The notes under the pieces are model-generated. The model searched no databases and had not been told where the DNA came from. It was given only the letters and a program-made list of their open reading frames with translations. Source: Chiloscyllium plagiosum (lineage: Eukaryota). From it: a stretch of 64,000 bases of DNA. Below, piece after piece: positions 2,500-61,917 of this stretch; position 1 is the first letter of the stretch, and every line of letters begins with the position of its first letter. The stretch lies in the NCBI RefSeq assembly GCF_004010195.1, contig NC_057711.1, positions 27,663,566 to 27,727,565 of the forward strand, read 5' to 3'. The translations under genes and the position numbers were made by a program.

Positions 2500-2593
2500 A
2501 TTCCTGATAAAGAGCTTTTGCCCAAAATGTCAATTTTCCTGCTCAGATGCTGCCTGACCTGCTGAGCTTTTCCAGCACCACTCTAATCTTGAC
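2500..2593 (+). repeat. PLE-derived hammerhead-bearing short repeat, decayed core
   Basis: ttcCTGATAAagagcttttgcccAAAATGTC followed by the family body gatgctgcctgacctgctgagcttttccagcacc; core positions are mutated. Confidence 0.8.
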
Positions 2594-2779
2594 CACACAG
2601 ATTTAAGGTGTCTGGTAGAAATATTAGAGGAGATATGAGGAAAAATGCTTTCAACCAGAATATGCTAAGTGTCTGGAATTTGCTGACCTGTTTGATGTTG
2701 AGGTTGAGGACCCTCAACTCATTTTAAAACAAACCTGGATCTATACTTGAAATATATTATAAGACAATGGACCAGGATA

Positions 2780-4730
2780 TTTTTTATTCATTTGTGGGAT
2801 TTTGATTTTGCCGGTTGGGGTCAGCATTTACTGCCCATCCCTGACTAGTGTTAAAAAGGCATTGATGAGCTGCCTCCTGACCTGCTTCAGTTGGTTTATT
2901 GTAGGTGGACCCACAATGCCATTACGGAGGGAGTTCCAGGACTTTTGCCCAGCAAAAGACAACGAAAGGCGAGTTGATTCTAAGTAAGGATGGTTGGGTG
3001 ACTGGGAGAACTTGCTGGTTCCCATGCATCAGCTGCTCTTGCCCTTCTAGGTGGAAGTGGTCATGGTTTTGAAAGGTGTTACCTGAGGAGTCTTGCTGAA
3101 TTTCTGCAGTGCATCTTGTAGATGCTACACATTGCTGTTGCTATACATTGGGGATGGAGAATGTGAATGGCACATCCACATATAACCAAGTTGGCTGGCT
3201 TTTCTTCCATGGTGCCAAGCTTCTTGAGTGTTAGAACATAGAACATAGAAGAATACAGCGCAGTACAGGCCCTTTGGCCCTCGATGTTGCGCCGATCCAA
3301 GCCCACCTAACCTATACTAACCCACTATCCTCCATATACCTATCCAATGCCCGCTTAAATGCCCATAAAGAGGGAGAGTCCACCACTGCTGCTGGCAGGG
3401 CATTCCATGAACTTACGACTCGCTGAGTGAAGAACCTACCCCTAACTTCAGTCCTATATCTACCCCCCCTTAATTTAAAGCTGATCTCCAGCATCTGCAG
3501 ACCTCACTTTCTCCTCGACCAAAACTGCACACAATACTCCAGATGTGGCCGCACCAGAGTCTTATACAACTGCAACATTACCTCAGTACTCCGGAACTCA
3601 ATTCCTCTACCAATAAAAGCCAGTACGCCATATGCCTTCTTCACTGCACTATTTACCTGGGTGGCAACTTTCAGAGATCTGTGTACATGGACACCAAGAT
3701 CCCTCTGCTCATCCACACTACCAAGTATCCGACCATTAGCCCCGTACCCCATCTTTTTGTTATTCTTCCCCAAGTGAATCACCTCGCACTTAGCTACATT
3801 GAATTCCATTTGCCACCTTTCTGCCCAGCTCTGCAGCTTCTCTATATCCTGCTGTAACCTGCTACATCCTTCCTCACTGTCAACAACTCCTCCGACTTTT
3901 GTGTCATCCGCAAACTTGCTCACCCAACCTTCTAGCCCCTCTTCCAGGTCATTTATAAAAATGACAAACAGCAATGGTCCCAAAACAGATCCTTGCGGAA
4001 CACCGCTAGTGACGGCACTCCATGAAGAAACTTTGCCATCAACTACTACCCTCTGTCTTCTTCCATCCAGCCAATTCCTAATCCAAACCTCCAACTCACC
4101 CTCAATGCCATATCTCCGTATTTTCTGCAGTAGCCTACTATGGGGAACCTTATCAAACGCCTTACTAAAATCCATATATACCACATCTACCGCTTTCCCC
4201 TCATCAACCTCTTTCGTCACCTTTTCAAAGAATTCAATAAGGTTTGTGAGGCACGACCTGCCCTTCACAAAACCATGCTGACTATCCTTGATCACATTAT
4301 TCCTATCCAGATGTGCATAAATCCTATCCCTTACAATTCTCTCTAAGACTTTGCCCACAACAGAAGTGAGACTCACCGGCCTATAGTTACTAGGGTTATC
4401 CCTACTCCCCTTTTTGAACAAGGGAGCTGTTGTTAAGAGCTGCATTTCCAAGCAAGTGAGGGGTGTTCCAGCATTCTGACTTTTACTTTGTAGAGCATGG
4501 ACTAGCTTTTGGGAGTCAGAAGGCAACTTACTTTCTGCTGGATTCCTAACCTTCTGTCCTGTTCTTGTAGCCATTGTATTTATTTGGCCAGTCCAGTTCA
4601 GTTTCTGGTCAATGGTAAGCCCCACAATGCTGATAGTGGGGGGAATTCTGCGATAATAACACCATTGAATACTATGGAGTGGTTAGATTCTTTTTTTATT
4701 GGAGATAGACGTTACCTGACACTTGTGTAG
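2780..4730 (-). mobile_element. Older CR1/L2-group LINE 3' part, split by a young CR1 (pieces about 2780-3232 and 4427-4730)
   Basis: Minus strand reads GLTIDQKLNWTGQINTMATRTGQ (post-RT domain); 3' tail gggatgggcagtaaatgctg...atgaataaaaaa; sequence resumes across the 3233-4426 insertion. Confidence 0.7.
3233..4426 (-). mobile_element. Young 5'-truncated CR1 LINE with an uninterrupted RT domain
   Basis: About 300 open codons: NYRPVSLTSVVGK, QHGFVKGRSCLTNL, YMDFSKAFDKVPH, SGVPQGSVLGPLLF, SKFADDTK; (TTCTATG)n-type tail at 3233-3250. Confidence 0.95.
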
Positions 4731-4988
4731 CCTTAAAAATTAAGCCTGTTCATAGTTTTATGTTGGATAGCTAGTTCAGAGCACTATTCATTTTAATTAT
4801 CTTAAAAGGGAATCCGTTTCAACTGCACTTAATAATCGACAATCCCCAAAATCTACAATACTGTCATAAGTCTGGATAAATCATGTACTCCTAGATGCAT
4901 TCAAAATATACACATTCTCAAATGAACAGTTTATCTATGAACAGTCCCTGGTCAAAATTTAATGCATTTCAAAACAGCAGTGGTTGTT

Positions 4989-5083
4989 TCCAGATGAAGG
5001 GGTTTTGTCCGAAATGTTTATTTTCCCCGCTCCCCGGATGTTTCCAGCACCACTCTTATCTCCAGCATCTGCAGTATTCTGTC
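4989..5083 (+). repeat. PLE-derived hammerhead-bearing short repeat, decayed
   Basis: cCAGATGAaggggttttgtccGAAAtgtt...ttccagcaccactcttatctccagcatctgcag. Confidence 0.7.
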
Positions 5084-5084
5084 C

Positions 5085-6510
5085 ACTTTAAATGTGTGTC
5101 CTTTGATAATTGACCTCTCAGCTATGAGAAACATTTTCTCTGACTATACTGTGCAAGCTGTTCAATACCTTATACACCTCAGTTAAGTCACCCTCCGCTT
5201 TCTCTGTTCTAAGGAAAACAATCTAGCCAATCAGTCTTTCCCTCTTTTTTTGTCACTGTTTGAAATTTACTGCTTTCTTGGCAATCTCCTCTGTACTGTA
5301 AAGCAAGCATGTCCTTCCTATAATGTGGCGATCAGAATTGTATGACAAATTCCAGCTGTGGTCTAGCCAGTGACTTGTATAATTCCAGCTCTATATTCCT
5401 GCTTTTGTACTCAACAATTCATCTGGTGTAAGAAAACATTCCACATGACTTCTTTAACATGTGGAAGTCATGTTAAACTGATCCTGTCACTTTCAGAGAC
5501 ATACAGTCCAAGATCTCTCTCCATCTCTACCCTTTTCAATATCCTTCTGTTTATTGTGTATTCCCTTGCTTTGTTTGCCCATGCCCATTGCATAATCATG
5601 TTCTTCTCTGGGTTGAATTTTATTGGCCATTTTTTTCACCTATTGATTGTACTATTGATATTTTCCTGCAGTTGACATAATGTTAACTTCTTCACACTCA
5701 ATTGCATGGCCAAGTTTTGTCGTCTTCTGCCTGTTTTTCAATTGTATCTCCCAGATTCAAGTCTAAGTCATTGAAATATATCACAAATAGCAAGTGACCG
5801 ATCTGTGAGCCCTGTAGACACCCTTGGAAATTGCTTTCTATTCACACAAACATCTAGAACATAGAACATAGAACAATACAGCACAGAACAGGCCTTTCGG
5901 CCCACGATGTTGTGCCGAACATTTGTCCTAGCTTAAGCAGTTGAAACTTTATTGCTGGAACAGCACAGCAGGTCAGGCAGCATCCAGGGAACAGGAGCAC
6001 AGAACAGGCCCTTCGTCCCACGTTGTTGTGCCGAACATTTGTCCTAGCTTAAGCACCCATCCATGTACCTATCCAATTGCCGCTTTAAAGGTCACCAATG
6101 ATTCTGACTACCACTCCCACAGGCAGCGCATTCCATGCCCCCACCACTCTCTGGGTAAAGAACCCACCCCTGACATCTACCCTATACCTTCCACCCTTCA
6201 CCATAAATTTATGTCCCCTTGTAACACTCTGTTGTACCCGGGGAAAAAGTTTCTGACTGTCTACTCTATCTATTCCTCTGATCATCTTATAAACCTCTAT
6301 CAAGTCACCCCTCCATCCTTTGCCGTTCCAACGAGAAAAGGCCTAGCACACTCAACCTATCCTTGTACGACCTATTCTCCATTCAGGCAACATCCTGGTA
6401 AATCTTCTCTGCACCCTCTCCAAAGCTTCTGTCGACCATTACCCTTTGTTTTCTCTCACTGAGTCAACTTTAGATCCAGCTTGCAATGTGACGCTGTATC
6501 CCATGTGTGT
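5085..6510 (-). mobile_element. Old degenerate CR1 (about 5085-5855 and 6430-6510) hosting a younger CR1 3' end (5856-6430)
   Basis: Inner piece encodes IEVYKMIRGIDRVDSQKLFPR...TRGHKF...FFTQRVVGAWNALP with an (agaacat)n tail; flanks are collinear decayed CR1 ORF2. Confidence 0.8.
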
Positions 6511-6516
6511 TAATGG

Positions 6517-6620
6517 GAAATGTTGATTTTACTGCTCCTCGGATGCTGCCTGAACTGCTGTGCTCTTCCAGCACCACTAATCCAGAATCTGGCTTCCAGC
6601 ATCTGCAGTCGTTGTTTTCA
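6517..6620 (+). repeat. PLE-derived short repeat, starts at the GAAA half of the hammerhead core
   Basis: gaaatgttgattttactgctcctcggatgctgcctgaactgctgtgctcttccagcacc...ccagcatctgcagtc. Confidence 0.8.
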
Positions 6621-7272
6621 GTTTGTTAATTTCTGAGGTTGGTCTGCCATCTGGGACTGTGGTACCTTTATTTTTTTTTAAAAAAGTGTGCAAAATAAAT
6701 GACAGGCTTTGGATATTCAAGGCATCATCATTTTTACCCATGAGAGAGATTTGGATGCTCATTTTGCAGATAGTTATAAATGGTGCCCATTAATCTGGGC
6801 TTGTAGTTAAGTTGCAAATTAATATATAGGTAGAATAAGGACAGTAATGCTGAGTAGAACATATAGCATCATTCAAAATTCATATTTCCTCTAAATGTAA
6901 GTTTTAAGGATGTTGTGGGTGGAGAGAAGGGATAAAGCCATGACATAAAGAATTTTAAGTAAAGTGCTTTTCAAACGAGGATTGCTCTGCTTTTTTTCAA
7001 AATGTTTAATACTAGCAGGGTACAGGGCCAGGTCACTCTGAAATAAAGGCAACAAGAAACCTCTCAGAATGAGGAAAGACAATTGACCAATTGAGCTCAT
7101 TCCTCCTTTTTATGTCTGAGGTGGCAAGGGGGAAATCCATCATCTCCATTCTCTCTTCCTGAAAATCACTTTCTTTTTTATTGTTTCTGAGACAATGTGA
7201 AAATTTGTATTTTTTTCAAGCCAATGTCAAAACAGAAAGTATTCCAGTACAACTGATACTGTATGGTATTAG

Positions 7273-7372
7273 GCAAAAGTGAGGACTGCAGTGTTGAGAT
7301 CAAAGTGGTGCTGAAAAAGCTCAGCAGGTCAGGCAGCACCCGAGGAGCAGGAAAATCGACGTTTCGGGCAAA
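7273..7372 (-). repeat. PLE-derived short repeat with half of the hammerhead core
   Basis: Reverse complement reads ttttgcccGAAACGTCgattttcctgctcctcgggtgctgcctgacctgctg. Confidence 0.8.
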
Positions 7373-9371
7373 ATTCTTGTTTTGATTCTCCAAAGGAAAA
7401 CTCTTCTGTTTACAATTATGTATGTGTTTCTTTCCCTACCTCTAATCCCTGGCTGGCCTGAGACAAACATTCATGAAATAAAAGGAAAAGCCTCACCAAT
7501 CAATCTACTTACCCATGTGGGTATGGTTTAAGTACTGTATTGGCATTTCCTGGTGGATGCAAACATACGTGATGTGTTGTTGAAGATGTTAATATAAATG
7601 TTAAATGAGCTGAATTGGATTGGGCTGATCAATTGATCTGGTTAGTCCAGTGCCTAATTTTGCACTTACAAATACGGATGTGAAATTAATACTAGTTCTG
7701 CTGGTTGTATAAGGTAGTTGAGATTAGCAGACACTGCTTTTGTTTCTGAATTTATTCTGGATTCTGGTGCAAGATCAGAACGTTTGAAAATTGTACAGTC
7801 TTTATCTGTGCGATTCATCCTCTTCAGTAATTTATACAGTGCAATATCTGCTTGTAACACAACTAGATAGCTGTGTAAAATATGAGCAAAGAGGCTGTCA
7901 AACTTAGTCCGACTAATAGGTTGTGCATTTATCTGAACAAAGCTAAAACTTAACTTCCTGTTGCAGAATTGCAAACCATGTATGTAGGTAATAATTAGAT
8001 CAAGGCAATATAACATGTCTGATGTTTCAGACATATTTTAGCATTGCTACAGAAATCTGTGAAATCAAGTGATAAATGTGAGTGCACTTGGCATAAAATC
8101 CTCCCACACTGTGTGGTTTGTTGAGAGCTTTATACAACAGTTCAGGAGACTGTTGTGCTGGAATGTTGTTAGATTCTATACATTCTTGTTTTCCATTAGT
8201 AAATTCAATCTGCATGGATGTATCTTAATAGCATGACAGCATCACTGGCTTTGTTTTCTAAAATACAAGAGATTGTTGGCATTAGCAACTCCTGCTGCTC
8301 CTTTTTCTCAGGAAGTAAGTCTGGAATTCTAACTCAATTTACATGATATTTCTCTAGTTTGACTGGAAAAGGGCTCATTGTTGTGGTTACCTGGTAAGTC
8401 TTTTATTAATATTTATTCTTTTTGTGAAAACCACTTCACTAATTCGCAAATGCTTTCTCGATTGGTACCTTACATTGTTGTGGATAATTACAGTTGCCCT
8501 TAGTTTCATAACACATTTTGGTGATGTATAATGCCACGTAATTACTGTGTGAAACTGCTCTCTTTTAAAGAGCCAGTTCCTTACACTTGGTCATTATTTT
8601 GAATGTACCGTTTATTCATTTCTGCATTTGCTCCAGATCTGATTCATCTTTCTTGTCATCACTGCAGTGCAAAAATAAAACATGATATCTGGAAAAAACT
8701 ATTGAAAATAAAATTGGACAAGTGTCTAATTTGACAGAAGAAAATAACTTATTCCATTATAGGGTGCTGTATCATGTCTTAAGGGCATTTCAGAATGATT
8801 TGTATGCAGTGAATTACATTCAGAAATGCAATGATTGTTACATGGGTAGATACAAGTATCATATTGTAAACCGAAAAGTTCCACAGACAGCAATGAGATA
8901 CATGTCTCATATATCTTCTGTGCTGGTTGAGAGACATGGCAAGGAAATTGTGGTAACATGTTATCTTTCTTCGGTGGTGCCATTGAATCTTTAACCTGAG
9001 CTGACATTGGAACCTAAATTTAACATCGGAAAATACAGCGTTTTGTTTGACAGAATACTGCAGGATATGCTAAGATTGGCCTTGGAGTGCAGCCTGAAAC
9101 TATAACCTTCTGGCTCATGTGAAAAGATTGCAGACAGATCCAAGCTGACATTTGGAAAGGTTAAAACAGCCAGTTCATTTTAAAGCTGATGTTGCAACAC
9201 AATTATGCATGGGTTTTTAAAAAAAAAAATTGAAATCTATACCAATACTGTGAGGTCACTTTTCTTTTGGTGCTGGGAAGATAGTACCGATTTAAAAACA
9301 ATTTTCTTTTGTCCTCTTCTACTTTTGCATTCAGTAGGAATGAAAATCTGGTTGTTAAATTGAACATCAAA

Positions 9372-11519: not shown

Positions 11520-12800
11520 GTGTTAGACTGCTCATTGCCAATTTTGTAGCAGATTTGCAAGGCACTCACAATCTCTTCAATTCTATCATCAAGAATCTCA
11601 GCCTGTCATTGGATGCTGCCAAAACAAGCTGCACCAAGTCAGTCCAATTTTCCACTGTAATATATGCTGAAGGTGAGACTCCGGAATATGTTGAACACTT
11701 CAATTACCTTGACAGCCATCTCTCTCAAAAGGCCACCATTAATGAGTATATCCAATGAGCGCTTGCATCAGTTCTACAAACTGCAGCAATGAATGTTTGA
11801 CAGCAAAGGCCTATCAGTGTCTCTCAAATTCTAGTGTTCCAAGCAGCTGTTGTCTTCTCACTCCTGTACTGCAGTAAGACCTAAAGTGTGCATCCATAAC
11901 AAATAAAAGCACAAGAGAAATTCCTTCAGCAGGACCTTCACTGGAGTCATGGGAAGGATAAACACTTACAACCTTGAAATCAACTGGAAATGTTTTCAGG
12001 CACAACTCCTGCAAAGCCAACTTTGACACACACTCGATAGCTGAAAAAGGTCTCCTTCACCAGATTCTGTTTTCTATGAACTTTCAAGTAGTCAGCATTC
12101 CAGAGAGGATTGAATTAAGTTTATTGTCATGTGTACTCATGTGAATACAGTGAAAAGTTTGCAAGTTGCCATTTACGGTACTATGTTGGTACAAACCAGC
12201 AAAATAAAGAAAACAAAGTTTAAAAGGTTAAAAGTTTAGTCATATTTGCTAAAATGTAGAAAAACAAAGAAACACTGTTCATAGTTGACCACCACAATCC
12301 GTAAACACCTGGCCATCTGGGCTCTCATTCCTCACAAGGGCTTGACCTCCAACTTCTGCTGGCTGCCCCAGGCTGCCAGCTCCTGCTCTCGCCATCTTGG
12401 AATGACTGCCATCGACACTGGGGTCCCCAGTTGCCTTCCAAATCATGTGCACCTTTCCAACCTGGGTCAAACTCCTCTGTGATGATCTCCGAGCTGCACA
12501 AACTCTCACCTTAAAAGGGTAAATATATTAAACTGAGACAGAAAAGGTAGAAGAAAGAAAACAGTGAAAGGAATAAAAAGGCAAAAGCCGGTGGCGCAGA
12601 CTAGCCTCGAGCAAGAACCCGCATGCTGTGCTGCTACTGTGTGCCATCTTGTCCAGTGTCCAAATATATCACCATTCCTTCATTGTTGATTTAAAGATGA
12701 GGCTCCAAACAGACCATAAATCTCTCCTTGAACTGTAGCAACATCAACATTAATATTTGGGAGGAGCTCTCCACCTTTCAAAACAGAGATGCCAAATCAG
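11520..12800 (+). mobile_element. Degenerate RTE-clade LINE fragment, interrupted at about 12110-12690
   Basis: DLQGTHNLF...LSLSLDAAKT...EGETPEYVEHFNYLDSHLSQKATINEYIQ resembles the RTE RT thumb region (LE.VE.F.YLGS.LS....ID.EI). Confidence 0.65.
12110..12651 (-). mobile_element. Putative non-autonomous retroelement with a Rex/Babar-type 3' tail
   Basis: Minus-strand end ttttcactgtattc...acatgacaataaa matches the tails at 47480-47530 and 59365-59410; internal segment recurs at 14080-14163. Confidence 0.5.
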
Positions 12801-12814
12801 AAACAACCATCAGA

Positions 12815-13790
12815 ATCAGAAATTGTTGAAAACAAAACTCAGCAGATCTGGCCGCATCTGTGGACAGAAAACAGAGTTAATGTTTCCAGGAATGGGTAAA
12901 TGTCAGCCAGTTAGAATGAATAGCTGCTAATGGGGGCTGTTAGTGGCTAACGATGGGTTGTTTGTGGTAGCAGTCCACGTGATGACAGGATATGGTGTGT
13001 TGGGGTTGGGGTAAGGACACATGGGAGAAGGTGCTTAGGGCTGAAAATGTGTTGCTGGAAAAGCGCAGCAGGTCAGGCAGCATCCAATGAACAGGAGAAT
13101 CGACGTTTCGGGCATAAGCCCTTCTTCTCATCCTCAGAAGAATCCATACACTAATTAAACAGTTCTTCCTAGCCATATCGGAAATTAAAGACAGTAAGTA
13201 CCAAAAACTTTCATGTATCATCCTCAGAAGGTGCTCAGGCCCTAAAGTTATTGAACTTTTATATTGAGTCTAGATGGGTGCCAGCAAAAAATAGGATACT
13301 GTTCTTCCAGCTTATGCTGAGCTTCACTGGGATGCTACATCAAGTCCGAGACCAGGGAACGTGGTGGTGGTGTGAAATGTCAGGTATCTAGAAGCTCGGA
13401 CATTTTTGCAGACAGAACGTAAGTATTCTGCAAAGTGGTCACCCAGTCTGCACCATGTCTCTTTAACGTAGAGGATTCCACATTGTGAGCAATGAATATA
13501 GTATACTAGATTGAGTGGAGTACAGCTAAATCACTGCTTCACTTGCAAGATGTGTGGACCTTGGAGAGGGAGGAAGTAAATGGGCACTTTTTATAATTCA
13601 GTGAGAAAGTGCTTTAGGGATGTGAGGAGATGTTGGGAGTGGACCAGTGTGTCCCGGAGAGAATGGTCCCTGCGGAAGGCTGACAAGGAAGGGGAATGTG
13701 TCTCTGGTGTTGGCATCCTGCTGGAGATGTTGGAAATTATGGCTAATGATCCTTTGAACTTGGATGCGAGTGGGATGGTAAGTGAGGACG
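12815..13790 (-). mobile_element. Penelope-like element fragment (linker, GIY-YIG and 3' region)
   Basis: LVLTYHPTRIQVQRIISHNFQHLQQD and SLSAFRRDHSLRDTLVHS; collinear with the PLE at 32295-33246. Confidence 0.8.
13040..13127 (-). repeat. Young tail-less hammerhead arm inserted in the PLE; core truncated
   Basis: Reverse complement GAAGAAGGGCTTATGCCCGAAACGTCGATTCTCC; the leading CU of the core is missing. Confidence 0.85.
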
Positions 13791-14816
13791 AGGTGGCTTG
13801 GACAGGCAAGGTGAGTGGACAGATGCATGGCAGATACAGTTTAATATGGATAAATGTGTGGTAAGGACAGGAGGCAGATTACTATGTAAAAGGAGTCAAG
13901 TTAAGTAAAGGGGAAGTACAATGAGATCTAGGTGTTCTTGTACATCCTCTTGTAAGGGTGCCTGCCTTGAAGAAGTTTTCCTCTCTCTACAAGAATCTCA
14001 GGGAGTCCCTCTCCTACTGCAAAAAAAATAAAACTAATCCAGGTTCTTGTACATCTTTCAATGAAAGCAAGCATTCATAGTAGAAAAAAGTGAAAGGAAT
14101 TAAAAGGCAAAAAGTTTGTGGCGCAAACCAGCCCCGAGCAGGAGCCGACATGCTGTGCTGCTACAGTGAAGGAAGCTAATGGCATGCTGGCCTTCATAAC
14201 AAGAGGAATTGAGTGTAGGAGCAAAGAGGTCCTTCTGCAGTTGTACAGGGCCCAGGTGAGACTGCACCTGAAGTAGTGTGTGCAGTTTTGGTCTCCAAAT
14301 TTGAGGAAGGATATTCTAGCTATTGAGGGAGTGCAGCATAGGTTCACGAGATCAATTCCCGGAATGGCGGAACTATCACGTTGAAAGATTGGAGCAACTG
14401 GGCTTGTATACCCTTGAGTTTAGAAGGCTGAGAGGGGATCTGATTGAGACATATAAGATTATTAAAGGATTGGACACTCTGGAGGTAGGAAGCATATTTC
14501 TGCTGATGGGTGAGTCCAGAACCAGAGGACACAGTTTAGAAATACGGGGTAGGCAATTTAGAACAGAGTTGAGGAGAAACATCTTCACCCAGAGAGTGGT
14601 GGATATGTGGACTGCTCTGCCCCAGAAGACAGTGGAGACCAGGTCTCTGGATACTTTCAAGAAAGAGATGGATCGAGCACTTAAAGATAGTGGAATTAAG
14701 GGTTATGGTGTAAGGCAGGAACAGGATACTGATTGTGGATGATCGCCATCATCATAATAAATGGTGGTGCTGGCTCAAAGGACCGAATGGCCTACTCCTG
14801 CACCTATTGTCTATTG
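13788..14816 (+). mobile_element. CR1 LINE 3' fragment with two small foreign inserts
   Basis: ERLEQLGLYTLEFRRLRGDLIETYKIIKGLD...RTRGHSLEIRGRQFRTELRRNIFTQRVV plus 3'UTR. Confidence 0.9.
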
Positions 14817-14819
14817 AGG

Positions 14820-14975
14820 GGGACCAGCCCTCCCCAAACCTACCCCCTCATTTATCTCTCCACCCCCAAAGCTTCCAGCCTCATTCCTGATGAAGGTTTC
14901 CTGACCGAAACTTCGATTGTCCTGCTCCTCCGATGCTGCCTGATCTGCTGTGCTTTTCCAGCACCACTCTAATCT
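14820..14975 (+). repeat. PLE 3' region with hammerhead motif (core 14887-14914)
   Basis: cattcCTGATGAaGGTttcctgACCGAAActtcgatt plus family body. Confidence 0.8.
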
Positions 14976-16702
14976 GTTAGTGCAAACAATACACTGTCAG
15001 CCGCTAATTGTCCCCATTAGCAGCTATTCATTCTCCCAGACTGATCTGTATCCATTCCTTTGTCTGCCCAAACTGTTTTTCTCTCTCTCTCTCAAGCTCC
15101 ATCTCCACCTATTGTTTTCCTCCTTCCCCCTCTCCACAGATGCAGATGCTGACTTTTTCCCACTCTCTACTGTTCATTCAAAATGACAGCAATTTGTCCA
15201 TCAAGGTGCATCATAATTTGAGTTGCAATGTCTCGAGAATAAGGCAGAGTGATGGCAGAGAAGAGAAGTAAAGGAAGCAGATCTTGCTGTCTGGGTCATG
15301 CTTCCTCATAGACCATCTTCTATTGTCAGTCCAAAGTTCTGCAGATTGTGTATCAGCCTGTCACACGAAGACACCTGGCAGAAATTTGTGACTGTGACCA
15401 TGTCAATGTTGTCCTTTAATGAGAGTTCACTCGAGACTGGTCGGTTAAGACTCCATCATTCCACATTCTTAATTTCTTTCTTTAACTGTGATGCTGTATG
15501 GAGAACCTGGGCAGCTGCCAGGAAAGTTTGATAGCACCTCTGCTTTTAATGATCCAGTTTATAAAGTCACAGCTGTTTTGTTGTCTGTATTTGTCTTATT
15601 AATATAGGATGATTAATCAACTGGCAGAAAAGCCATGGAAATAGTGGTGGCAGAGGATTTATAGAGAGTTATTCCCACAGCATGCTGGTATGTCAGTTTT
15701 TTATCCATAGGATGTGGCTTCTGTTGGCAAGACGAGCAATAATTTTTCATTCCTAGATGCCTTTGAGATTGTGGTCATTAGAGCTGCTGCCTTCAACCAT
15801 TGTAGTCCATGGGGACCATGCTATTATGAGCAAGTGAGTTTTTGAGGATTTTGATCATGATTTTTAAAAGTTAGTTGATGGGATGGAGGTGTCGCTGGCC
15901 GGACCAGCATTTTAATACTTGTTCCAATTTCTCTTGATGGTAGTAAATTGGTGTTTGGATTTTGAAGGGAATTTGCAGGCCGTTAGGCTAGTTGTTTTAA
16001 TTAATTCTTGATTTTTGTCAAGTGAATACAGTCTTTGGACTCTTAGCTGCCCTCTGGGAAATATTGAATGGACAATAAATGCTGACCTTGCAATAATGCT
16101 CAAATTTTGTGAACGGATTTTAAAAAGCTGTTAATCAATAAAAGAGCTGAAAAGTGTCAAGACCAGAGATGCTGCTGCAGGAATATTCTGGATCCATGTA
16201 AAGAGGATGGTGCCATTGTCCTTTGATAATTGTGACCTGTTGAACAGTTTTTCCTTTGACACCTAATATCCTCCCTCTCCTTCTGGAACCTTTTTGCTGC
16301 CATGCTGTGTGGAGGAGAACTGGTCTTGCTGCATATTTGGCATTCTGCTCCTGTTTTCATTTATCGCTCAGTGTTGTCATGGTCACTAGAAGCTGCACGT
16401 GTTTGGCAGAACTGAATGTCATCCTGGTAGGAGCTGCTTATGACCAGGAGTTGGAGATCGCTGCCTGGATCAGATTTATCCTCTTTGGTTGTGTGTGGTC
16501 AGAAATGGATGGCCTTTTGTGGCCTCTGAACCTGTTTGTCTTCAGTTTTAGATTTATCCTGTAGAAAAATGTGCACTTCTTTTTTTTAATTACAGGGCAG
16601 CACAAACAATTTATAGTTAAATTGCTTAGAATAGAACATATTTTGCAGTGGTGTTTCTTTCTTATAGATTTTACAAGGGCTGAGGGAGGGCTTATGAGGG
16701 AA

Positions 16703-16805
16703 GGCTCATTCCTGATGAAGAGCTTCTGCTTGAAACATCAATTCTCCTGCTCCTTAGATGCTGCCTGATTGGCTGTGCTTTTCCAGCACCACACTCTTTG
16801 ACTCT
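16703..16805 (+). repeat. PLE-derived hammerhead-bearing short repeat
   Basis: cattcCTGATGAaGAGCttctGCTTGAAAcatc plus family body. Confidence 0.8.
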
Positions 16806-25561: not shown

Positions 25562-25715
25562 TCAAGACTGATTGGACCCAATGTAGAGGAGACCGCATCG
25601 GGAGCAACGGATACAATAAATGATATTAGTGCATGTGCAGGTAAAACTTTGGATGTGGAAGGCTCCTTTAAGGCCTTGGATAGAGGTGAGGGAGGAGGTG
25701 GGAGGCTGGGCGCCT
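25562..25715 (-). mobile_element. PLE GIY-YIG N-terminal fragment
   Basis: SIQGLKGAFHIQSFTCTCTNIIYCIRCSRCGLLYIG. Confidence 0.85.
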
Positions 25716-25888: not shown

Positions 25889-26108
25889 CCCCACTCACCT
25901 ATTGTACTCTATGCTACTTTCTCCCCACCCCCACCCTCCTCTAGCTTATCTCTCCACGCTTCAGGCTCACTGCCTTTATTCCTGATGAAGGGCTTTTGCC
26001 CGAAACGTCGATTTTGCTGCTCGTCGGATGCTGCCTGAATTGCTGTGCTCTTACAGCACCACTGATCCAGAATCTTGTTTCCAGCATCTGCAGTCATTGT
26101 TTTTACCT
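25889..26108 (+). mobile_element. PLE 3' terminal (pLTR) region
   Basis: C-rich leader, hammerhead motif, family body and tail ccagcatctgcagtcattgtttttacc. Confidence 0.85.
25982..26009 (+). ncRNA. Minimal type I hammerhead ribozyme motif, intact core
   Basis: CTGATGA-A-GGGC tttt GCCC-GAAA-CGTC; predicted cleavage after GUC at 26009. Confidence 0.8.
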
Positions 26109-31407: not shown

Positions 31408-32200
31408 TATTATTTGTGATTTATGCTGTAAATAAAATGTAGCAGTGATGTGCAGACCCTCGCATAACATTTCTGTTACTTAGTGTGTGTTTTTATATAA
31501 ATGTGACCTTTTTGATTATCCAGAATAATTGATTAACTGGCATACTCTTGGTCCATTAGGAGCCAAATAGTTAAAAAAAATACTGAATTTGCAGTAGCTT
31601 ATTTAGATCACTGATCTAGGTCTGGTAACTATTCAATGTGGTTCAATTAATTTAACTAGCAAGCACGCTTATTGCTTTACTGTTAACGAGGTGCCATGAT
31701 TATCAAAAGAGATGCATTTAATTTTGGAAATCAAGGTATAATTAAGGGCTAAACGTTCCTATGCACCAAAGTGATCGTGCTATAATGAACTGGTTCCTAA
31801 TTAGATGATGTCTTGGACAAATAAAATTGTTAAACAGGTGAATCCTTTGATAGCATAGACTAGCGTTATATTTAAGTTGATCTTTTATCCAATGTTACAA
31901 AGTATGGAATGCTTATGAAAACAGTTCATTCTAAGTCTGTTGGAATAAAGTGCATAGTTTAACGTGCCTTGGATTGAGGTAGTATTTGGAAAAGCAGTAA
32001 ATATTCGTATTCACTTCTGTCTATACGTCATCTTCAAAGTTCAGGATTGTTCAGGATTTGAGCATTATAGTTAGCTGATACAAAGTAGTTTAATGGTTTG
32101 TCCTTTGACTATTCATGTCTGCCAGGAGCCACTTTCCCCAGCAAGCATATCTTGTGAAGATGGCATTGTTTGAATGTGAGTTGGTTTTGTAATCAGAATA

Positions 32201-32294
32201 GCTGAAAATGTGTTGCTGGAAAAGCGCAGCAGGTCAGACAGCATCCAAGGAGCAGGAGAATCGACGTTTCGGGCATGAGCCCTTCTTCAGGAAT
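32201..32294 (-). repeat. Young tail-less PLE arm with hammerhead
   Basis: Same subfamily as 13040-13127 and 46894-47023. Confidence 0.88.
32263..32290 (-). ncRNA. Minimal type I hammerhead ribozyme motif, intact core
   Basis: Reverse complement CTGAAGA-A-GGGC tcat GCCC-GAAA-CGTC. Confidence 0.8.
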
Positions 32295-36649: not shown

Positions 36650-36778
36650 TTGATGAAGGGCTCCAGCCCGAAACGTTGATTTTCCCTGCTCCTTGGATGC
36701 TGCCTGACCTGCTGTGCTTTTCCAGCACCGCTCTAATCTTGACTCTAACCTCCAGCATCTGCAGTCCTCACTTTCACC
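36650..36778 (+). repeat. PLE-derived hammerhead-bearing short repeat with tail
   Basis: TTGATGAaGGGCtccaGCCCGAAAcgtt plus body and tail ctccagcatctgcagtcctcactttcacc. Confidence 0.85.
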
Positions 36779-37444
36779 TACTTCATTGTTCTTGTTCAGT
36801 AGATTTGATATTTTTTCAACCTTTGAATTTGGTCTGCAATATGTGGTTAGGCCTTCAACCTGGATTTCTCAAACTAAAATGGGAAACAAGTATGAAAATA
36901 AATAGCTGCACAAAACACTTTATTTCTGTCAAACTTGAACATGTTAAACCAATTGCTCTGATAACTTGTAGTTGCGTATTTGAAATTATGACTGGTAAGA
37001 TAGTTTGTGTTAATAGGCACTTAAATAGATGATGGATAACTCCAGATACACAGCAAATATGCTGACTCTTAATTGTCCTCTGAAATGTTTTGATAAACCA
37101 TTCCATTGCAGCAAACCACTACAGAAACTCCAGTGGTGTAAACACACCCCATGGATTGTGATGGTTCATGAAGGTGGTTTACCACCATTTCTTCAATGAC
37201 ATTTGGGGATAGGGATTAAATGTTGGCCTTGCCAGCACATTTTCTAAGCTAGCAACCATGCCTACAAAATGAGTTCTCATCTCACTTCTCATCCTTTCGT
37301 GATCTGGTTCTACTTTCTGTCTCTGCATCATCTTCCAACCTTTTATCTCTTCTGTTAATTCTTCCCTTTTTCAATATGTTTCTTCAGACCCTGACCTCTT
37401 GCATTCTCCTTTATTCTCCTCTTAACCATTCAGCTCCTTCCACT

Positions 37445-44604: not shown

Positions 44605-45882
44605 TTTGTAATTAAAGCTTGTAATTATTCAAAATTGAAGTTCTGCCCTTCCCAACACTTTGATTTTTGATCTCTTAACATTCCGTGGCTTTAGATAACT
44701 GGACAAAGGCTGTTTTCAAAGCATCCAAGACCCTAAGAGTAGAGTTAAGCTGTGTAGCCCATTGAGTCTGCTATTCCATTCATTGAGATCATGGCTGATC
44801 TGATAATCCTCAACACCAGTATCCTGCCTTTTCCTGTAACCCTTGGATGATGTGTAAATAGTCCTTTCCACTTAAGAACTTGGTTATACTGTAGTACATT
44901 CACTTTCCTCAACCAGTTCATTAATATAGATAGTAATAATTGTGGGCTTGGCGTTGTATCCTGTGGTTCTTGACAAATTATTGGTTGCCATCCTGAAAAT
45001 GTCCTCCTTATCCCTACTGTCTGCCTTTTGTCAATTAGCACAATCGTCATTTGATTTGTTCTTTTACCTTCTCATTACTTGACTTTAAAATTTTAGCCTT
45101 AAACCTAAGGAAACTAATTTTGCATTAACATGTACAAATGAATAATGGTGTATGGAGAAATATGTGCCTAAAAACTGATCAAAGAAATTCTCAACAGAAA
45201 GAGAAATACTCTCAGCATTAATAAAGAATTCCAGTATCTTGTACAAAAGAGCAATTTAGTGTTGAACAATAGTCTTGTGTAGTAGCTTTCTTAGTGCATA
45301 ATCAACTATATTGCATCATTATGAAAAAAAAGTACATGTTCATTATGTAATTGATATTATACTGATTTCATGGACTTCATTAATACTTTTTGATAATAGA
45401 CGTTAGGTGATGTGCGAATGCTCCTTTTTGGCTTCGCTTACAGTTTCACTTTGTTTGAAATGGGGGAAGTCTGCTACTTCCCTGCAATTGTTGCACTGAA
45501 ATTGCAAAATGTTTTGGAGGAACTTGTTGATGAGAGACCCCCTCTGTGACACCAGTAAGATAGTGTCAGGAGGAATGTTGACCTTTAAGCCTGTCACTGG
45601 GTTCAGGCATTTCTAACATTGCCAGATAATTATACACCTATGTATAAAGCACGAGTACACCATCTCTTGTTTTACACTCCCAATCAAATGGGTTCATGCC
45701 ATTGTTCTCAGTCCTACGAAACAGTGATGTCTACCGTATTCATGATTTGTAACTCAGGTGATTCCTCAGAACAATCCTGAAGCCACAGGGCTTTTTGGGC
45801 AGAGAGGAACTGCCATGGAGAGGAGGGTGGAGGTTGAAGGTTTCTCAGGGCAGGGTTCTGCTGCCTTTCGTTGCAGTTTCTA

Positions 45883-46077
45883 GAGTGTGGTGCTGGAAAA
45901 GCACAGCAAGTCAGGCAGCATCCTAGGAGTAGGAGAATCGATGTTTCAGCCACAAGCAATCCCTTCTGCCCAAAACGTTGATTCTCCTGCTCCTTGGATG
46001 CTGCCTGGCCTGCTGTGCTTTTCCACCACTACACACTTGACTCTGATCTCCAGCTTCTGCAGCCCTCACTTTCTCCT
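45883..46077. repeat. Head-to-head palindromic PLE mini-element
   Basis: 45883-45950 is the reverse complement of about 45967-46036; only the right arm has the tail. Confidence 0.85.
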
Positions 46078-46893
46078 GTCATTGCTGTTTCCTTACCTCC
46101 ACTAGAGAGTTTATGTGGGCATTTTCATCTGCCCAAGGCTTGTTGGATGAGGTGCTGCCAATGTGGTACAGTTTGTAGCAACTTGCTTCCATGCATTTAA
46201 CATCTATCTTTCTCCTTTTCATTTGCGTCTTTACAGTGTCTTTTTAAAGTGGTTTTGCTGTCCTTGAGATTGGCTGCCACTCTTAAGTTCCTTTGGAAGC
46301 TGACTATTTGGTAATACTTGGAATTATTTGTATGCACCATCCGAACCGTAGAGCTGATTTTTATGTGGTCATGACTGAGATGCTGAAAGAATTGGTTTCA
46401 GTGAGAATGCTGGAGTTTGTTCATCTGTCTTCCCATTTGACTTTGAGAATCCTGTGAAGACACTGCTGGTGGAAATTCTCCAGTATCTCGAGGTTCCTTT
46501 TGGCAGGTGACCCATGTCTTGTTGCCACAGAGAAAGAAGTGCAGTGGCAAAACAGTTTTGTGGAATGAAACAGTAATTGCTGGAGAAACTCAGCATGTCC
46601 GGCTGCATCTGTGAAGAGATTGAATGTTGTGGACTAAAACCATTGCTTTCTTATCTGTATTCTGAAAGACTCAGTAAAATGTGTTATAATCAGTGGCACA
46701 GATCTAAACTCTGCTTCCTCTCTCTGGTGGCGCAGAACAATATAAATTAGACTACTGTAAACTTGTGTGGAATTTTGTGACCTCTTTTATTTTGCATGTT
46801 AATATAAAGATTTATGATTGTTAACTTTTCGGTTTCCTGAGTTTAATATTTGCTTCTTACCTTGTGAAGGATAAAAGCTCATATATAAAAGTA

Positions 46894-47023
46894 TTCCTGA
46901 AGAAGGGCTTATGCCCGAAACGTCGATTCTCCTGTTCCCTGGATGCTGCCCTGCTGTGCTTTTCCAGTAACACATTTTCAGCTCTGATCTCCAGCATCTG
47001 CAGCCCTCACTTTCTCCTCCTTC
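46894..47023 (+). mobile_element. 130-bp hammerhead-bearing insertion with a 10-bp TSD
   Basis: TATAAAAGTA at 46884-46893 and 47024-47033 flanks the unit. Confidence 0.88.
46897..46924 (+). ncRNA. Minimal type I hammerhead ribozyme motif, intact core
   Basis: CTGAAGA-A-GGGC ttat GCCC-GAAA-CGTC. Confidence 0.8.
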
Positions 47024-52549: not shown

Positions 52550-54467
52550 ACAGAAAACAAAGTGCTGGAGCTCACAGCTGGTCAGGCAGTATCCATGGGG
52601 AGAAAGTTTATAACATTTTGAGCCGAGATCACTCTTCAGGTTCCTCTTAATCCTTTCCACCCACCCACTGCTCCCCTCCTTTCACAGCCCACATGTTTCA
52701 CTCGCAGGCCCTCCAGATTAACACACTCTGAATGTGTTATTTGTCACTGTCAAATTACTTGCTTTCATTATTTGTCCTGATTTGGATGACTGCTACAGTT
52801 TCTCTAAATGGATCTCAGGTTGCATGTGGCTTTAGCTGAGTTCATTTTCACTTGAGATTTTTTGCTCTGTTTTTTGCTCTGTGCCCTTCAGAAGGATTGC
52901 AAGGAAAACGGCTGTTTCTTATCCCAGATGCAGAATAACTTGCTGTATGTTTTATTATAATATTTCTGCCCTTGGTAGGTAAAGTTAATCAACTAGATCC
53001 TGTTGGATAATGATCAGGTGAAAAATTGCCTTGAAAAAGATGTAATTCTCATTCAGAAGTTAACCATGTGACTACCTATTTAAAAATTAAGATAAATAAA
53101 CTTCCTCTATAAAATGTAAATGCATTGGAATAAAAGCTTTATGACACCATATTTTATATTATAAAATCTCCTTTGTAATTTTAATGAGGCTTTTTAGACT
53201 ACACATCAATTCATAACTGAGCAATCCAAAAGGATCATTAATTGGTTAGCAAGAAAATCTGTTTAGGTTTTAATTATGTCCAGCATTCATTTCTAGTTTG
53301 TGCTAAAATTCAGCATAATGTTTGAGGGCTCAAGGATGTTGTAATTGTGATGACCTTCATTGTTTCAATTCAACATTTAAACCATTCAACTGATGCTATT
53401 ATTTGTGTTATCTTTCCTACTTCAGTATATGTTGATAATGAAAGACTACATATATTTGGATGGATGATCAATTTTTCAATGTATAATTTGCACATCTATT
53501 TAAAGGTATACTGTGTACATACTAAGGAAGCTATTTAAAATTTGTAATTACAAGCTCACTCCAGGTAATCAGGAGGGTGGAACACTGGAGATTAATCTTC
53601 ATGTTCAGAAGGTAAGCCAGTTGCTGATCTGAAATAAAGTGCTGCATTGACAGGAAGTACTTAGTGGTGAATATTTTTACAGCACGTTAAAATACCTAAC
53701 AAATTAACAGAGCAGAAATGGGCTGAATATGGCATGTGTTCCAATGATTTGTTTATACTGTTCACGGTAACAAGCATGAATGTAATTTTTACCCTTCATT
53801 AAGGGTGGCAACTCAGCACTTCAGGGGGAGAAAAAACAACTGCCTATAATGCCCTGTATCCATTTCCACTTGTATCTGGTTAGACTGTTAAAACAAACTT
53901 GTCATAGCTCATTTATTTTTTTAGATGTGGTTTGGTCTCAGTGCTATATATCAATATTGAGAAAGATAGGCTTTGACTAATGAATAGAGTGCTGATCTCT
54001 TAATTACTTGCATATACATTTGTGGGTGTAAACATTTGAAACTTTAACCCAGTTTTGAGTCAATGGCTGACTTTCAGATTTAACATTGCTCCATTCCCCA
54101 AATGAAGATGAGAAAAGTGTCTTTTTTCAGATGTGACTTTTAACCTTTGATAGTCTTTGCTGCTGAGCATCCCAGCTAGTATATTGTTTGAAAATAAAAG
54201 TTAACTTGAAAGCCAAAGGTGAAAGTTAGATCTTTTACTTCTGCCTTGGAGTTTTTGGAACATTGCTATGAGTTGAATTTATGTACATAAGCTTTATCCT
54301 TTTTGAACCAATTCACCAAACTTCCAGCCATGCCCTTGGTCCAAGCTCATGGAGCTCTTTCAGTTTATTTATAATATATGACTTGTCTACATGTTTGTAG
54401 CATTTTAATCCAAATTACTCTCAATATCAACTTTAAATTGAATGAATGGTTTTGCACTCCTCCACAG

Positions 54468-58904: not shown

Positions 58905-59412
58905 TCACCAACTTTTGCAGATGCACCGCAGAAAGAATCCTGTCCGGGTGCATAACGGTCTGGTATTGCAACTGTTCTGTCCAGGACTGAAATTACAGAA
59001 CAGCCCAGATTATTACGGAAGTCAACTTCTCTCTATGGACTCCATTTATACCTCTGTCTGTGTTGTGGAAAAGCTGTCAACATCATCAAAGACCCCATCC
59101 ACCCTCATAATGCTCTTCTACAACCTCTTCCATCAGGCAGAAGATACAAAAACTTGAACACAAGCACCAACACGTTCAAGAACAGCTTATTTCTTGCCGT
59201 TATTAGACTGATGAATAACTTTAAACAATGCTGATCTTGTTAATGTTGACCTTGCTTCACATACCACCTGTGCAGTGTAACCTGTGTGCCTCACTCTATC
59301 TAGGCTTCCTGTGATCTGTACATCCTTGCTTACTATGATCTGCTTGTAAAGCTTACAAACAAAGCTTTTCACTGTACTTAGGTACACATGACTACAATAA
59401 ATCAAATCAAAT
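58905..59412 (+). mobile_element. Rex/Babar LINE 3' end
   Basis: TNFCRCTAERILSGCITVWYCNCS motif, tail gcttttcactgtac...aataaatcaaatcaaat. Confidence 0.75.
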
Positions 59413-61772
59413 GTCGTATATTTTAAGGAAGTATAAATGAGCAAAATTTACTAATGTTTGGAACCACAGAGGAATATTTCATTTCTGTTTAAAGGCTATT
59501 GTAAGAATTTTTAATTAGATTGTAAAGTTTCTGCAGGGCTCGTGAACTAGATAATATGGTATCACCGTGTATAAAATAATGTGGGGAAGTGATTGAGGGT
59601 AGATGATAAAGGCAAAAAGGCATGACACCAAGTAGAAATGGTATTTATGTGTGCGATAGTGGGTGTAAGTGTTGATCAGACTACCATGTTGATAAGTTGC
59701 TGTTGAGATGTTTGCATGCTCACTGAGGGACGTTTTAAAGACAACTAAAATTGATAGTTTGACTGCCACCCAAAATCTCAGGACCAGTAGGGAGGATACA
59801 ATAGTACCTTCAAACAGAGTGCAGCTCCCATCCCCCAATACAAATCACATCACCTGAAAGTCAAGAACATCCGACGTAATATTAGGATAGTAGTGTCAGC
59901 GTACAGAAGTGAAGTAGCTAACATTTCTGTGAAGTAGCTGATATGCTGGAGTGCATGACAAAGCAATGCTTCAGAATGGATTTCGCACATGCTTAAATAC
60001 TTGGCAAAATGTTTAATATGGCCTGATAAGCAAGAAGACATTTATTATAAACGATCAAGGCACTGACATGTAATAAATAGAGAAATTGAATATAGGAAGT
60101 GGTAGAATGGAAAGGGGTTAAATTTCAAGTAAAAAGATTTTGGATTGCAACTGTTAAATGCTAAGGATGGAATAATGCTCAGAGAATGATCCACAGGATG
60201 GGTAAAGATGAAGGGAGAGTTTTTTTTTAACTTCACGCATAAAATGTTGCTGTAATTGTAGGTACCTGAATGAAACCAACTTAGAAATGAACAGCACTAT
60301 GTTGATCAGTTAGTCTGTGTGTAATCAAGGAATTAGGGGAATTGTTTTATTTTATAAATAACAAAAAAGTTATTTTAAGAATTGGTTATAAATTGTCATT
60401 AAGATATTCCCTTCTCGAAGGGACACATTGTAAAAAATATTAGATGTTTATTAAATATATTTTGGAATAGGAGTAGAATTAAGTAATTAAGAAATGTTCT
60501 GCATGCCATAAAACCAATTCAGCAGAAAAGTTGTTTGCTTTCTTTCTCTGGAAGTACACAGCCTCTGGCATCATATGGATCACTTGCATCAGACTATCAT
60601 ATTGATTTTGCAACTTGGTCAAGTGGAATCTGGTGTTTAGAGAGAGCAAGAAGGTGTTCTTCACTGAATGTCAACAGACCTTGAGTTGGGCAAAGAGGGA
60701 GGGGACTATCTTGACCTTTTGGTACCTGCCCTGTGTTCATTGGATAGGATGATTCAAAAGGGTGATATTAAAGCATAAACTACCAGCCCTGGAACTTAAG
60801 CATATTAATGAGTGCTCAGAGATGAGAACAGTTCCAGAAGAAAAGGAAGATCTAAGGAAAGAGTTCCCTAATACTTTGGCTAGTGAGCAGGACACTACAG
60901 TGTACACGCACACTGCCTAATGTCTGTTAGGAAGACAATTGGCCAGTGCGACTACAAAGAGTCTGGGACCTGTACAGTACAAAACCAAAGGTTTTTAATT
61001 TGTACGCATGAGGACTGATGCACAATGAACTGAAGTAAGGAAGAGAACATTAATGAATACAGCATGAGAGGAAGATGTTGATTGGTCAGTTTTAGCTGAA
61101 AAATTGGCAGTTAATATTTTCTGCTGCATCTCAAGGCCAAATAAGTTTCAATCAGCACCCTCCCCTCATGTTGGACAAATTGATCTTCCCTGTCTAACTA
61201 TGGTTTCTTGCATGTCAATCCTAATGAGTCCTAATAAAAATTTTCAACTTCATGACTATTTTTAGCTATGTTTTGAACTATTAGACAATCCATACGGTGG
61301 TCAGTCTTTTAGTTAGTGGAAAGTCATTGACACACCATGTTGGCAGATGTCTTGGTAGAAGTAGGTACAAGTGGGACAGGACAACAGAATACAAAAGGAA
61401 GACAGCATATGGAGCGACTTTTACCCTTTAAATGGTATTGGCATAATTATAACTCATTTAGTAAATTTGTACAAGATACGAAGTGCATCTTTATACATTT
61501 TCCTAACTTTCGTCACAACTTACCAGGAATTCACTGTTGCACAGAGGTATAGTAGTCCCTGCAGCTTAAACAATACTCTTTTAAAATACATTCAGACAAA
61601 GCGTAAAACATTATGAACTTCCAACAAAGTTAACTATCTGTAGGTCAAGATATCTATAAGTATCCATAAGTACAGCAAATGAAATGCATAGGAGGAAAGA
61701 TTTTTAAAAATGTGCTGTTTGGACCATACAATTTCTTTGACTTTATTCTGATCATGTACTCTAACATTTTTT

Positions 61773-61917
61773 AGTCAGTGTGGTGCTGGAAAAGCACAGC
61801 AGGAAAATCGATGTTTCGGGCAGAAGCCCTTCATCGGGAATTCCTGATGACCTGCTGTGCTTTTCCAGCACCACACACTTGACTATAATCTCCAGCATCT
61901 GCAGTACTCACTTTTGC
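61773..61917. repeat. Head-to-head palindromic PLE mini-element centred on GAATTC
   Basis: gtgtggtgctggaaaagcacagcagg ... tcatcgggaattcctgatga ... cctgctgtgcttttccagcaccacac, tail on the right only. Confidence 0.85.

What the first reader, a model, noticed from the sequence alone, without database searches (positions are those of the whole stretch)
2500..61917. Dense population of minimal hammerhead ribozyme mini-elements, about one per 4 kb
Seen: about 15 related units at 2500, 3481, 4989, 5940, 6517, 7273, 13040, 14880, 16703, 25975, 32201, 36650, 45883, 46894 and 61773. Three have intact cores (25982, 32263, 46897). Stem II GGGC/GCCC is held while the loop varies (TTTT, TTAT, TCAT, TCCA), and two copies have pairing-compatible changes (GGT/ACC, GAGC/GCTT). 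Known: Penelope-like elements carry minimal type I hammerheads whose palindromic stem III (ACGU) allows cleavage as dimers. Inference: most copies here lack ORF sequence and several start within about 10 nt of the CUGA. That fits a SINE-sized ribozyme-bearing unit amplified by PLE machinery better than random truncation. Stem I looks weak, so activity is not assured.
Basis: partly seen in the sequence, partly recalled or inferred. Interest (0 to 1): 0.72.

Follow-up and report, generated by a model that had tools for sequence, protein, structure and literature searches.

The report
Penelope hammerhead copies mark transcript start
These tiny repeats are the hammerhead-bearing ends of a known kind of jumping gene (Penelope-like), about 600,000 in this genome, and most short copies begin just before the hammerhead, often after one extra G, which likely means they are dead-end DNA copies of the first 95-130 bases of the element's capped messenger RNA rather than a separate mobile element.

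Summary
The units are real; three have intact minimal hammerheads. They are not an independent SINE. Each is the terminal repeat (pLTR plus a ~30-nt tail) of a Neptune-type Penelope-like retrotransposon with RT and GIY-YIG domains; the same unit precedes the ORF in full-length copies. Density is ordinary for this genome (191 hits in 1.13 Mb). Half the units are arms of head-to-head pairs with target duplications. Best reading: run-off cDNAs from the uncleaved, capped mRNA leader (inferred). Stem covariation belongs to source lineages; copies decay at CpG in the core. Two of 30 U6 loci are fused exactly at the predicted cut site, indirect evidence of cleavage in cells. No start or cut was seen in RNA reads. 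This scan reported the same readings earlier on other DNA of this and other genomes.

The parts
2500..2592 (+). pLTR unit from -4, no tail; core decayed
3481..3522 (+). tail-only fragment, no hammerhead
4989..5076 (+). old unit from about -3, decayed core, internal deletion
5941..5995 (-). fragment +32..+89, no hammerhead
6517..6619 (+). unit from +20 with tail, CUGA box absent
7275..7375 (-). unit from +12, CUGA box absent
13037..13127 (-). unit from +2, no tail; left arm of an insert flanked by a 10-nt or longer target duplication
13129..13217 (+). piece of the PLE ORF 5' part (72% to L217), right arm of the same insert
13944..14022 (+). isolated piece of the PLE ORF start (91% to L217)
14828..14976 (+). 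about 55 nt of PLE 3' UTR plus unit; C3 at 14887, stem II variant GGTT/GACC, stem III changed
16707..16803 (+). unit from about -5; C3 at 16712, stem II variant GAGC/GCTT, stem III changed
25577..25700 (-). inverted GIY-YIG endonuclease piece of the PLE, separated from the unit by an N gap
25890..26108 (+). PLE 3' UTR plus unit with tail; intact hammerhead, C3 at 25982, predicted cut after 26009
32200..32294 (-). unit from -4 preceded by G, no tail; intact hammerhead, C3 at 32290, predicted cut after 32263
36651..36779 (+). unit from about +1 with tail; core decayed
45874..45957 (-). left arm (no tail) of a head-to-head pair, from +10
45963..46077 (+). right arm (with tail) of the pair, from about +11
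46893..47019 (+). solo unit from -4 with tail and 10-nt target duplication; intact hammerhead, C3 at 46897, predicted cut after 46924
61773..61841 (-). left arm (no tail, internal deletion) of a head-to-head pair, from -4; core decayed
61838..61916 (+). right arm (with tail, most of the hammerhead deleted) of the pair

Best explanation
The units are the hammerhead-bearing terminal repeat (pLTR plus tail) of a Neptune-type Penelope-like retrotransposon, and the short ones are likely run-off DNA copies of the first 95-130 bases of its capped, uncleaved mRNA. Shown: the unit follows an RT + C-x4-C-x2-C + GIY-YIG ORF and also precedes the ORF start in full-length copies; 3' ends fall at two positions (about +90 and +125); 5' ends pile up at -4; pairs join one tailed and one tailless arm head to head inside a target duplication. 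Inferred: transcription starts at the A at -4 (initiator-like YYANWYY), so helix I is the first thing in the mRNA; the element's RT starts at the two internal sites, as shown in vitro for an anole PLE, and when it does so on the leader copy it reaches the cap after about 100-130 nt and often copies it as an extra G; priming from both nicked strands would give the head-to-head pairs. The inserts are likely dead ends. The ribozyme is conserved in source elements, would cut only as a dimer or with protein help, and likely cuts a minority of RNAs in cells.
For: ORF link. 3' ends: 57 of 170 at +85..100 and 77 at +116..130; 31 of 40 pairs are tail + no-tail; target duplications of 7 nt or more in 22 of 31 pairs against 2.8% of shuffled flanks. 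5' ends: 93 of 162 in -10..+9, 53 of 87 among copies at least 93% like a UTR-bearing copy. Whole-genome exact counts for one subfamily: 5,359 copies with a non-template base at -5 against 14,275 with the template C. G at -5 in 67 of the first 100 listed; about 38 of 100 such G could come from an abutting inverted arm, leaving about 41 of 74 against 25% expected (P 2e-8), while copies ending at -3 show G in 13 of 100, or 13 of 66 after leaving out 34 junction rows (tallies by hand). An untemplated 5' G is attributed to cap copying in L1/SVA (PMC3287187). Loose ends at -4 also dominate in reads and contigs of four public runs (position). A second hammerhead PLE family shows 22 of 52 ends in -10..+9. 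Short and long copies are equally old. U6 fused at +28 in L289 and L306.
Against: No transcription start was observed: raw reads showed no place where many molecules begin or end (about 2% of one single-cell poly(A) run of a related organism). Full-length copies start anywhere from -93 to +71, only 6 of 30 at -5..0, so not all template RNAs start at -4. About half of the young exact copies extend upstream of -4. The -4 site begins with ATT, the cut preference of the anole PLE endonuclease (PMC11167929). The peak is broad (-10..+9) and junction microhomology blurs ends. A third family does not pile up at its hammerhead (5 of 23). Target duplications were found for only 7 of 23 tailed and 5 of 24 tailless solos. 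Core A/T sites are less diverged than downstream A/T sites (7 of 516 against 21 of 516, P=0.011), which leaves room for some selection. The in vitro work is on a Poseidon-clade element, not a Neptune.
Confidence: 0.65

Rival explanations
1. An independent SINE-sized, non-autonomous ribozyme element: solo units are transcribed from an internal promoter and re-mobilised by PLE proteins.
For: Defined 5' ends, target duplications on some solos, very high copy number, internal Inr/DPE promoter in Drosophila Penelope (PMC2377424), pLTRs sufficient in trans in Adineta (PMC3846280).
Against: No variant private to short copies among the common loop types; same age profile as UTR-attached copies; no tandems (0 of 173); solos lack the sequence downstream of the tail, which the anole PLE needs in vitro (PMC11167929); CpG decay of G12 in 19 of 129 copies.
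Confidence: 0.1
2. The -4 end is made by the element's endonuclease cutting at ATT in the pLTR or cDNA, or by fold-back self-priming, not by an RNA end; the G comes from inverted-arm remnants.
For: Anole PLE cuts at ATT in its own pLTR; 38 of 100 G rows fit an inverted arm; arms of a pair are often nearly identical (20 of 35 in the top 5%); self-priming was proposed in PMC3846280.
Against: About 62 of 100 G rows have unrelated sequence upstream; no G excess at -3; either arm can be the longer one and the tail is on one arm only in 31 of 40 pairs.
Confidence: 0.2
3. Ordinary random 5' truncation of PLE copies; the peak is an alignment artefact.
For: PLEs are heavily 5'-truncated (PMC8557442); a subfamily missing from my 69-copy reference set would give a false end near -4; 11 of 173 units were dropped at gaps or edges and are probably long.
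Against: Peak holds at high identity (53 of 87) and in exact counts for a subfamily whose upstream sequence is known; only 11 ends in -50..-11.
Confidence: 0.04
4. Copies are made from hammerhead-cleaved RNA or circles, as non-LTR retrozymes are.
For: U6 fusions at +28 suggest cleavage occurs; 9 of 162 ends at +27..33.
Against: That bin is not significant (P=0.078); most copies contain the whole hammerhead 5' of the cut; no tandems.
Confidence: 0.03

Closest known systems
Minimal hammerheads (min-HHR) in pLTRs of metazoan PLEs (Cervera and De la Pena 2014, PMC4209133; parts 1-2 of 4 read)
   Same: Type I core, extra base before stem II, G10.1-C11.1, palindromic stem III without loop, short helix I, mostly single dispersed motifs, some opposite-strand pairs.
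   Different: 4-bp stem II and U-U mismatch in stem I; roughly a hundred times more copies than the 4,000-9,000 reported there; that paper calls the singles probably truncated PLEs and gives no 5' end analysis in the parts read.
Neptune-clade EN+ PLEs with inverted pLTR, tail and target duplication (PMC8557442, PMC3846280; passages)
   Same: RT, C-x2-5-C-x-x-C linker, C-terminal GIY-YIG, partial-tandem 5' pLTR, inverted copy, one-sided 30-40 nt tail.
   Different: Here most inserts are only the terminal 95-130 nt with a preferred 5' end; in Adineta solo pLTRs without target duplications were put down to recombination or deletion.
PAc Poseidon element of Anolis (Frangieh et al. 2024, PMC11167929; main text read, supplements not)
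   Same: Two internal RT start sites bounding the tail, both DNA strands extended, hammerhead upstream, uncleaved RNA the dominant template.
   Different: Other clade; in PAc the ORF starts inside the hammerhead, here apparently about 40 nt after the tail; the paper saw no reads at the cut site and does not treat cap run-off in the main text.
Metazoan non-LTR retrozymes (PMC7229834 passages; bioRxiv 10.64898/2026.07.22.740005 part 1 of 5 and passages)
   Same: Type I hammerhead, pLTR-related, non-coding, PLE-dependent.
   Different: Retrozymes are tandem repeats of 150-450 bp cut at the ribozyme; these are single or head-to-head and begin before the ribozyme.
U6/L1 chimeras made by RtcB ligation (PMC6789731; abstract and outline only)
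   Same: U6 3' end joined to a retroelement RNA, then copied into DNA.
   Different: Here the partner end is the predicted 5'-OH of a hammerhead cut.

Membership tests
Endonuclease-positive Penelope-like element | Single ORF with RT and C-terminal GIY-YIG next to the repeat | tested here: met
   L118 533-aa frame with YIDD and GIY-YIG (Pfam E 0.0011 and 0.00027, just under the cut-off) directly before the unit; RT did not hit Pfam, read from motifs only
Endonuclease-positive Penelope-like element | pLTR: same repeat before the ORF in partial tandem | tested here: met
   L214, L216, L217, L219; 30 loci of tail-ORF junction
Endonuclease-positive Penelope-like element | Inverted 5' copy, one-sided 30-40 nt tail, target duplication | tested here: met
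   31 of 40 pairs tail + no-tail; 22 of 31 with duplications
Neptune clade | C-x2-5-C-x-x-C linker between RT and endonuclease | tested here: met
   CHRRNCKTC in P0002; definition from PMC8557442; Nematis shares the motif
Neptune clade | RT phylogeny with Neptune references | not tested
   no reference set fetched
Minimal type I hammerhead | Core CUGANGA/GAAA/UH with stem II and palindromic stem III | tested here: met
   3 in window, 62 descriptor hits in 1.13 Mb against 0 in reversed control; 39 of 103 ungapped copies intact
Minimal type I hammerhead | Covariation in helices | tested here: met
   G9A with C18T in 5 of 103 (P 2e-5, may be one inherited change); 7 of 9 pairs with two-sided change on 18 hand-picked sequences, stem I only 62% paired; stem III reads CG in one family and GC in another
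Minimal type I hammerhead | Self-cleavage | not testable with these tools
   indirect only: 2 of 30 U6 loci fused at +28; monomer folds give stem II but not the active fold
Non-LTR retrozyme | Head-to-tail tandem monomers each with a hammerhead | tested here: not met
   0 of 173 units have a same-strand neighbour within 60 nt
SINE (self-propagating short unit) | Own lineages apart from the autonomous element | tested here: inconclusive
   same loop types and age as UTR-attached copies; no tree built
SINE (self-propagating short unit) | tRNA/5S/7SL-derived pol III head | tested here: not met
   no such Rfam match on any unit; the head is the hammerhead

The most novel reading that the evidence does not exclude
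Penelope-like elements have a strong-stop-like product: the hammerhead is the first 32 bases of the capped mRNA, the RT primes on this leader from both nicked strands and runs off the cap, and the genome holds hundreds of thousands of such inserts. The repeats are then a fossil map of the transcription start, the two RT start sites and, through U6 fusions, the ribozyme cut in living germ cells.
Probability: 0.55. Interest if true: 0.62.

Novelty: new member of a known kind. Interest (0 to 1): 0.45.

Why it matters
How Penelope-like elements build their pLTRs, tails and inverted ends, and whether their feeble hammerheads ever cut in animals, are open questions in the papers read. If the reading holds, copy ends give the transcription start, show that uncleaved capped RNA is the usual template in vivo, and name exact sites to test. 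The window itself is an ordinary sample of a very abundant repeat; nearly all copies are decaying.

Tried and rejected
Rfam scan: no hammerhead hit; miRNA hits at 45896-46023 are the inverted pair. One DNA search of the genome returned nothing, which shows nothing. Run search: no RNA holder listed. First read lay placed no reads; the stretch was ORF interior of a minus-strand locus, not the unit, so no test. Second lay showed both strands about equally and 97% of reads running into unlike flanks, i.e. host read-through; no start or cut site. First 5' end maps for the other two families were inflated by inverted arms in the reference set and were redone; the -97..-69 group of the third family probably reflects limits of the reference set and is not used. 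Long open frames were mostly N runs. The first core-versus-flank divergence test was biased by alignment trimming and was redone on inner sites. A splice acceptor as cause of the -4 end was rejected: no AG precedes it. Cleavage as cause was rejected: ends are 32 nt upstream of the cut. Lunse et al. 2017 on dimer cleavage was not held; it is recalled only and not used.
Full report
Numbering: position 0 is the C of CUGA; the predicted cut lies between +27 and +28. The label 'shark-like' for the genome is recalled from its repeats and from earlier notes; no call names the organism.

Observation. A profile built from seven window copies finds all 15 loci, 17 arms in all, and nothing in reversed sequence. 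A hammerhead descriptor passes three: 25982, 46897 and 32290 on the minus strand. Seven more carry a decayed or clipped core; the rest are fragments without the CUGA box. The window lies in a 3.56-Gb genome. In 117 stretches of 10 kb chosen by coordinate (107 spread over 39 large contigs, 10 beside the window; 1,132,099 non-N bases) there are 191 hits of 30 bits or more, one per 5.9 kb, about 600,000 in the genome. The window's 16 are unremarkable.

What the unit belongs to. A GIY-YIG piece lies inverted beside the 25975 unit. Searching with it gave loci where RT (YIDD), a C-x4-C-x2-C linker and GIY-YIG run straight into a pyrimidine-rich 3' UTR and the unit. Walking 5' gave copies where the same unit precedes the ORF start. 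This is the pLTR arrangement of Penelope-like elements; the linker marks Neptune or Nematis (PMC8557442, passages). No tree was built. Window copies at 25975, 14880 and 13040 still carry body sequence.

3' ends and pairs. Of 191 sampled units 173 passed an 80% identity filter. Of 170 with clean 3' ends, 57 end at +85..100 and 77 at +116..130: the tailless and tailed ends that match the two internal RT start sites of the anole element (PMC11167929). 79 of 162 units are arms of abutting head-to-head pairs; 31 of 40 pairs join a tailed and a tailless arm; 22 of 31 have a target duplication of 7 nt or more against 2.8% of shuffled flanks. Solos show duplications less often (7 of 23 and 5 of 24). 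Arms of a pair are among the best 5% of matches in 20 of 35 pairs, which fits the same source but does not separate twin priming from fold-back.

5' ends. Against 69 natural copies with pyrimidine-rich upstream sequence, self left out, 162 clean 5' ends (11 dropped at gaps or edges) fall as follows: 25 beyond -100, 14 in -100..-11, 93 in -10..+9, 30 beyond +9, with the mode at -4/-3 (P about 3e-34). The cut-site bin holds 9 (P=0.078). Whole-genome exact counts for one subfamily agree: 14,275 with the template C at -5, 5,359 with another base, 4,487 ending at -3 among those the pattern could see. The A at -4 sits in a YYANWYY initiator-like motif (consensus recalled). Among the first 100 listed copies ending at -4, 67 have G in front. 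Looking four bases further, about 38 of 100 such G could be supplied by an inverted arm; the remainder, about 41 of 74, still exceeds 25% (P 2e-8), whereas copies ending at -3 show 13 of 100, or 13 of 66 without 34 junction rows. These tallies were made by hand on the first-listed contig only. An untemplated G at full-length L1 and SVA ends is attributed to cap copying (PMC3287187, passages). In four public runs of related organisms the commonest loose end before the unit is again at -4. A second hammerhead PLE family has 22 of 52 ends in -10..+9, a third only 5 of 23, so the peak is family-specific. Against the simple picture: full-length copies begin from -93 to +71, 6 of 30 at -5..0, and RNA reads showed no discrete start.

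The ribozyme. Stem II is 4 bp; stem I is AUUC/GAUU with a U-U mismatch in 45 of 73 copies and fully paired in one subfamily; stem III is one pair in a palindrome. G9A goes with C18T in 5 of 103 copies (P 2e-5); such copies share other features and look like an older subfamily, so the change may have been inherited once. Across families stems change on both sides (18 hand-picked sequences), so source elements keep the fold. Copies do not: G12 is changed in 19 of 129, the stem III CG in 25 and 26 of 129, and 39 of 103 ungapped copies are intact. One result points the other way: inner core A/T sites differ in 7 of 516 against 21 of 516 downstream (P=0.011). By analogy with RtcB ligation of U6 to 5'-OH L1 RNA (PMC6789731, abstract) this suggests cleavage in cells, on two cases.

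SINE or by-product. Short and UTR-attached copies share loop types and age (median identity 0.929 each, P=0.52) and no unit has a tandem neighbour. In the anole element the RNA must extend beyond the RT start sites; a solo lacks that part. I therefore read the solos as dead-end products of the mRNA leader. Occasional re-mobilisation is not excluded, since Penelope promoters can be internal (PMC2377424, passages).

Known and new. Hammerheads in pLTRs, inverted ends, tails and dispersed singles are published. I did not find the cap run-off reading or the U6 junctions in print in eight searches of the held library (none was aimed at U6-PLE fusions); subscription papers, Repbase entries, the supplements of PMC11167929 (genomic end profiles) and of the 2026 bioRxiv preprint were not seen and may bear on this. 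The scan's own earlier notes report the same readings on other DNA; I had the run-off idea before reading them, took the U6 lead from them, and ran the genome-wide G counts after reading them.

Verdict. The value lies in what the ends likely record about PLE replication. Confidence in the element's identity about 0.95, in the run-off mechanism about 0.65; interest 0.45.

Noticed in passing
window 26749-27163 (-) and 27830-28211 (+): Head-to-head pair of a different hammerhead-bearing PLE family with longer stem II, interrupted by a SINE-like insert at about 27163-27416; both cores are damaged by deletions.
   Followed up: partly
window 12794-12889, 20208-20296, 46577-46641, 52561-52640 (all -): Weak matches of an older related PLE end family; 12780-13800 also holds a GIY-YIG-like piece (13457-13530) into which the 13040 insert landed.
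   Followed up: partly
L201:7254, L157, L084 and others: A second abundant hammerhead PLE family (54 hits in 1.13 Mb, none in the window) with stem III palindrome AGCU instead of ACGU.
   Followed up: partly
L289 and L306, about 1500-1750: U6 snRNA copies fused to the unit exactly at the predicted hammerhead cut site.
   Followed up: yes
L294, L295, L299, L304, L307-L312: About ten of 30 U6 copies run directly into the 5' start of an abundant SINE-like repeat.
   Followed up: no
L228, L233, L242, L274: A piece of the ORF's 5' part is followed directly by a unit starting at -8 to -4, as a template jump after run-off would give; may explain partial tandems.
   Followed up: no
window 3504-4679 (-), 49366-49995 (+): RVT_1 fragments of a non-LTR retrotransposon (CR1-like, label recalled); the 3481 tail fragment sits at a junction inside the first.
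   Followed up: no
window 34855-35048 (-): RT-region piece 69% like the PLE, from a related family.
   Followed up: no
window 25717-25889: Assembly gap inside the inverted PLE insert; such gaps are common in long copies and bias counts towards short ones.
   Followed up: partly
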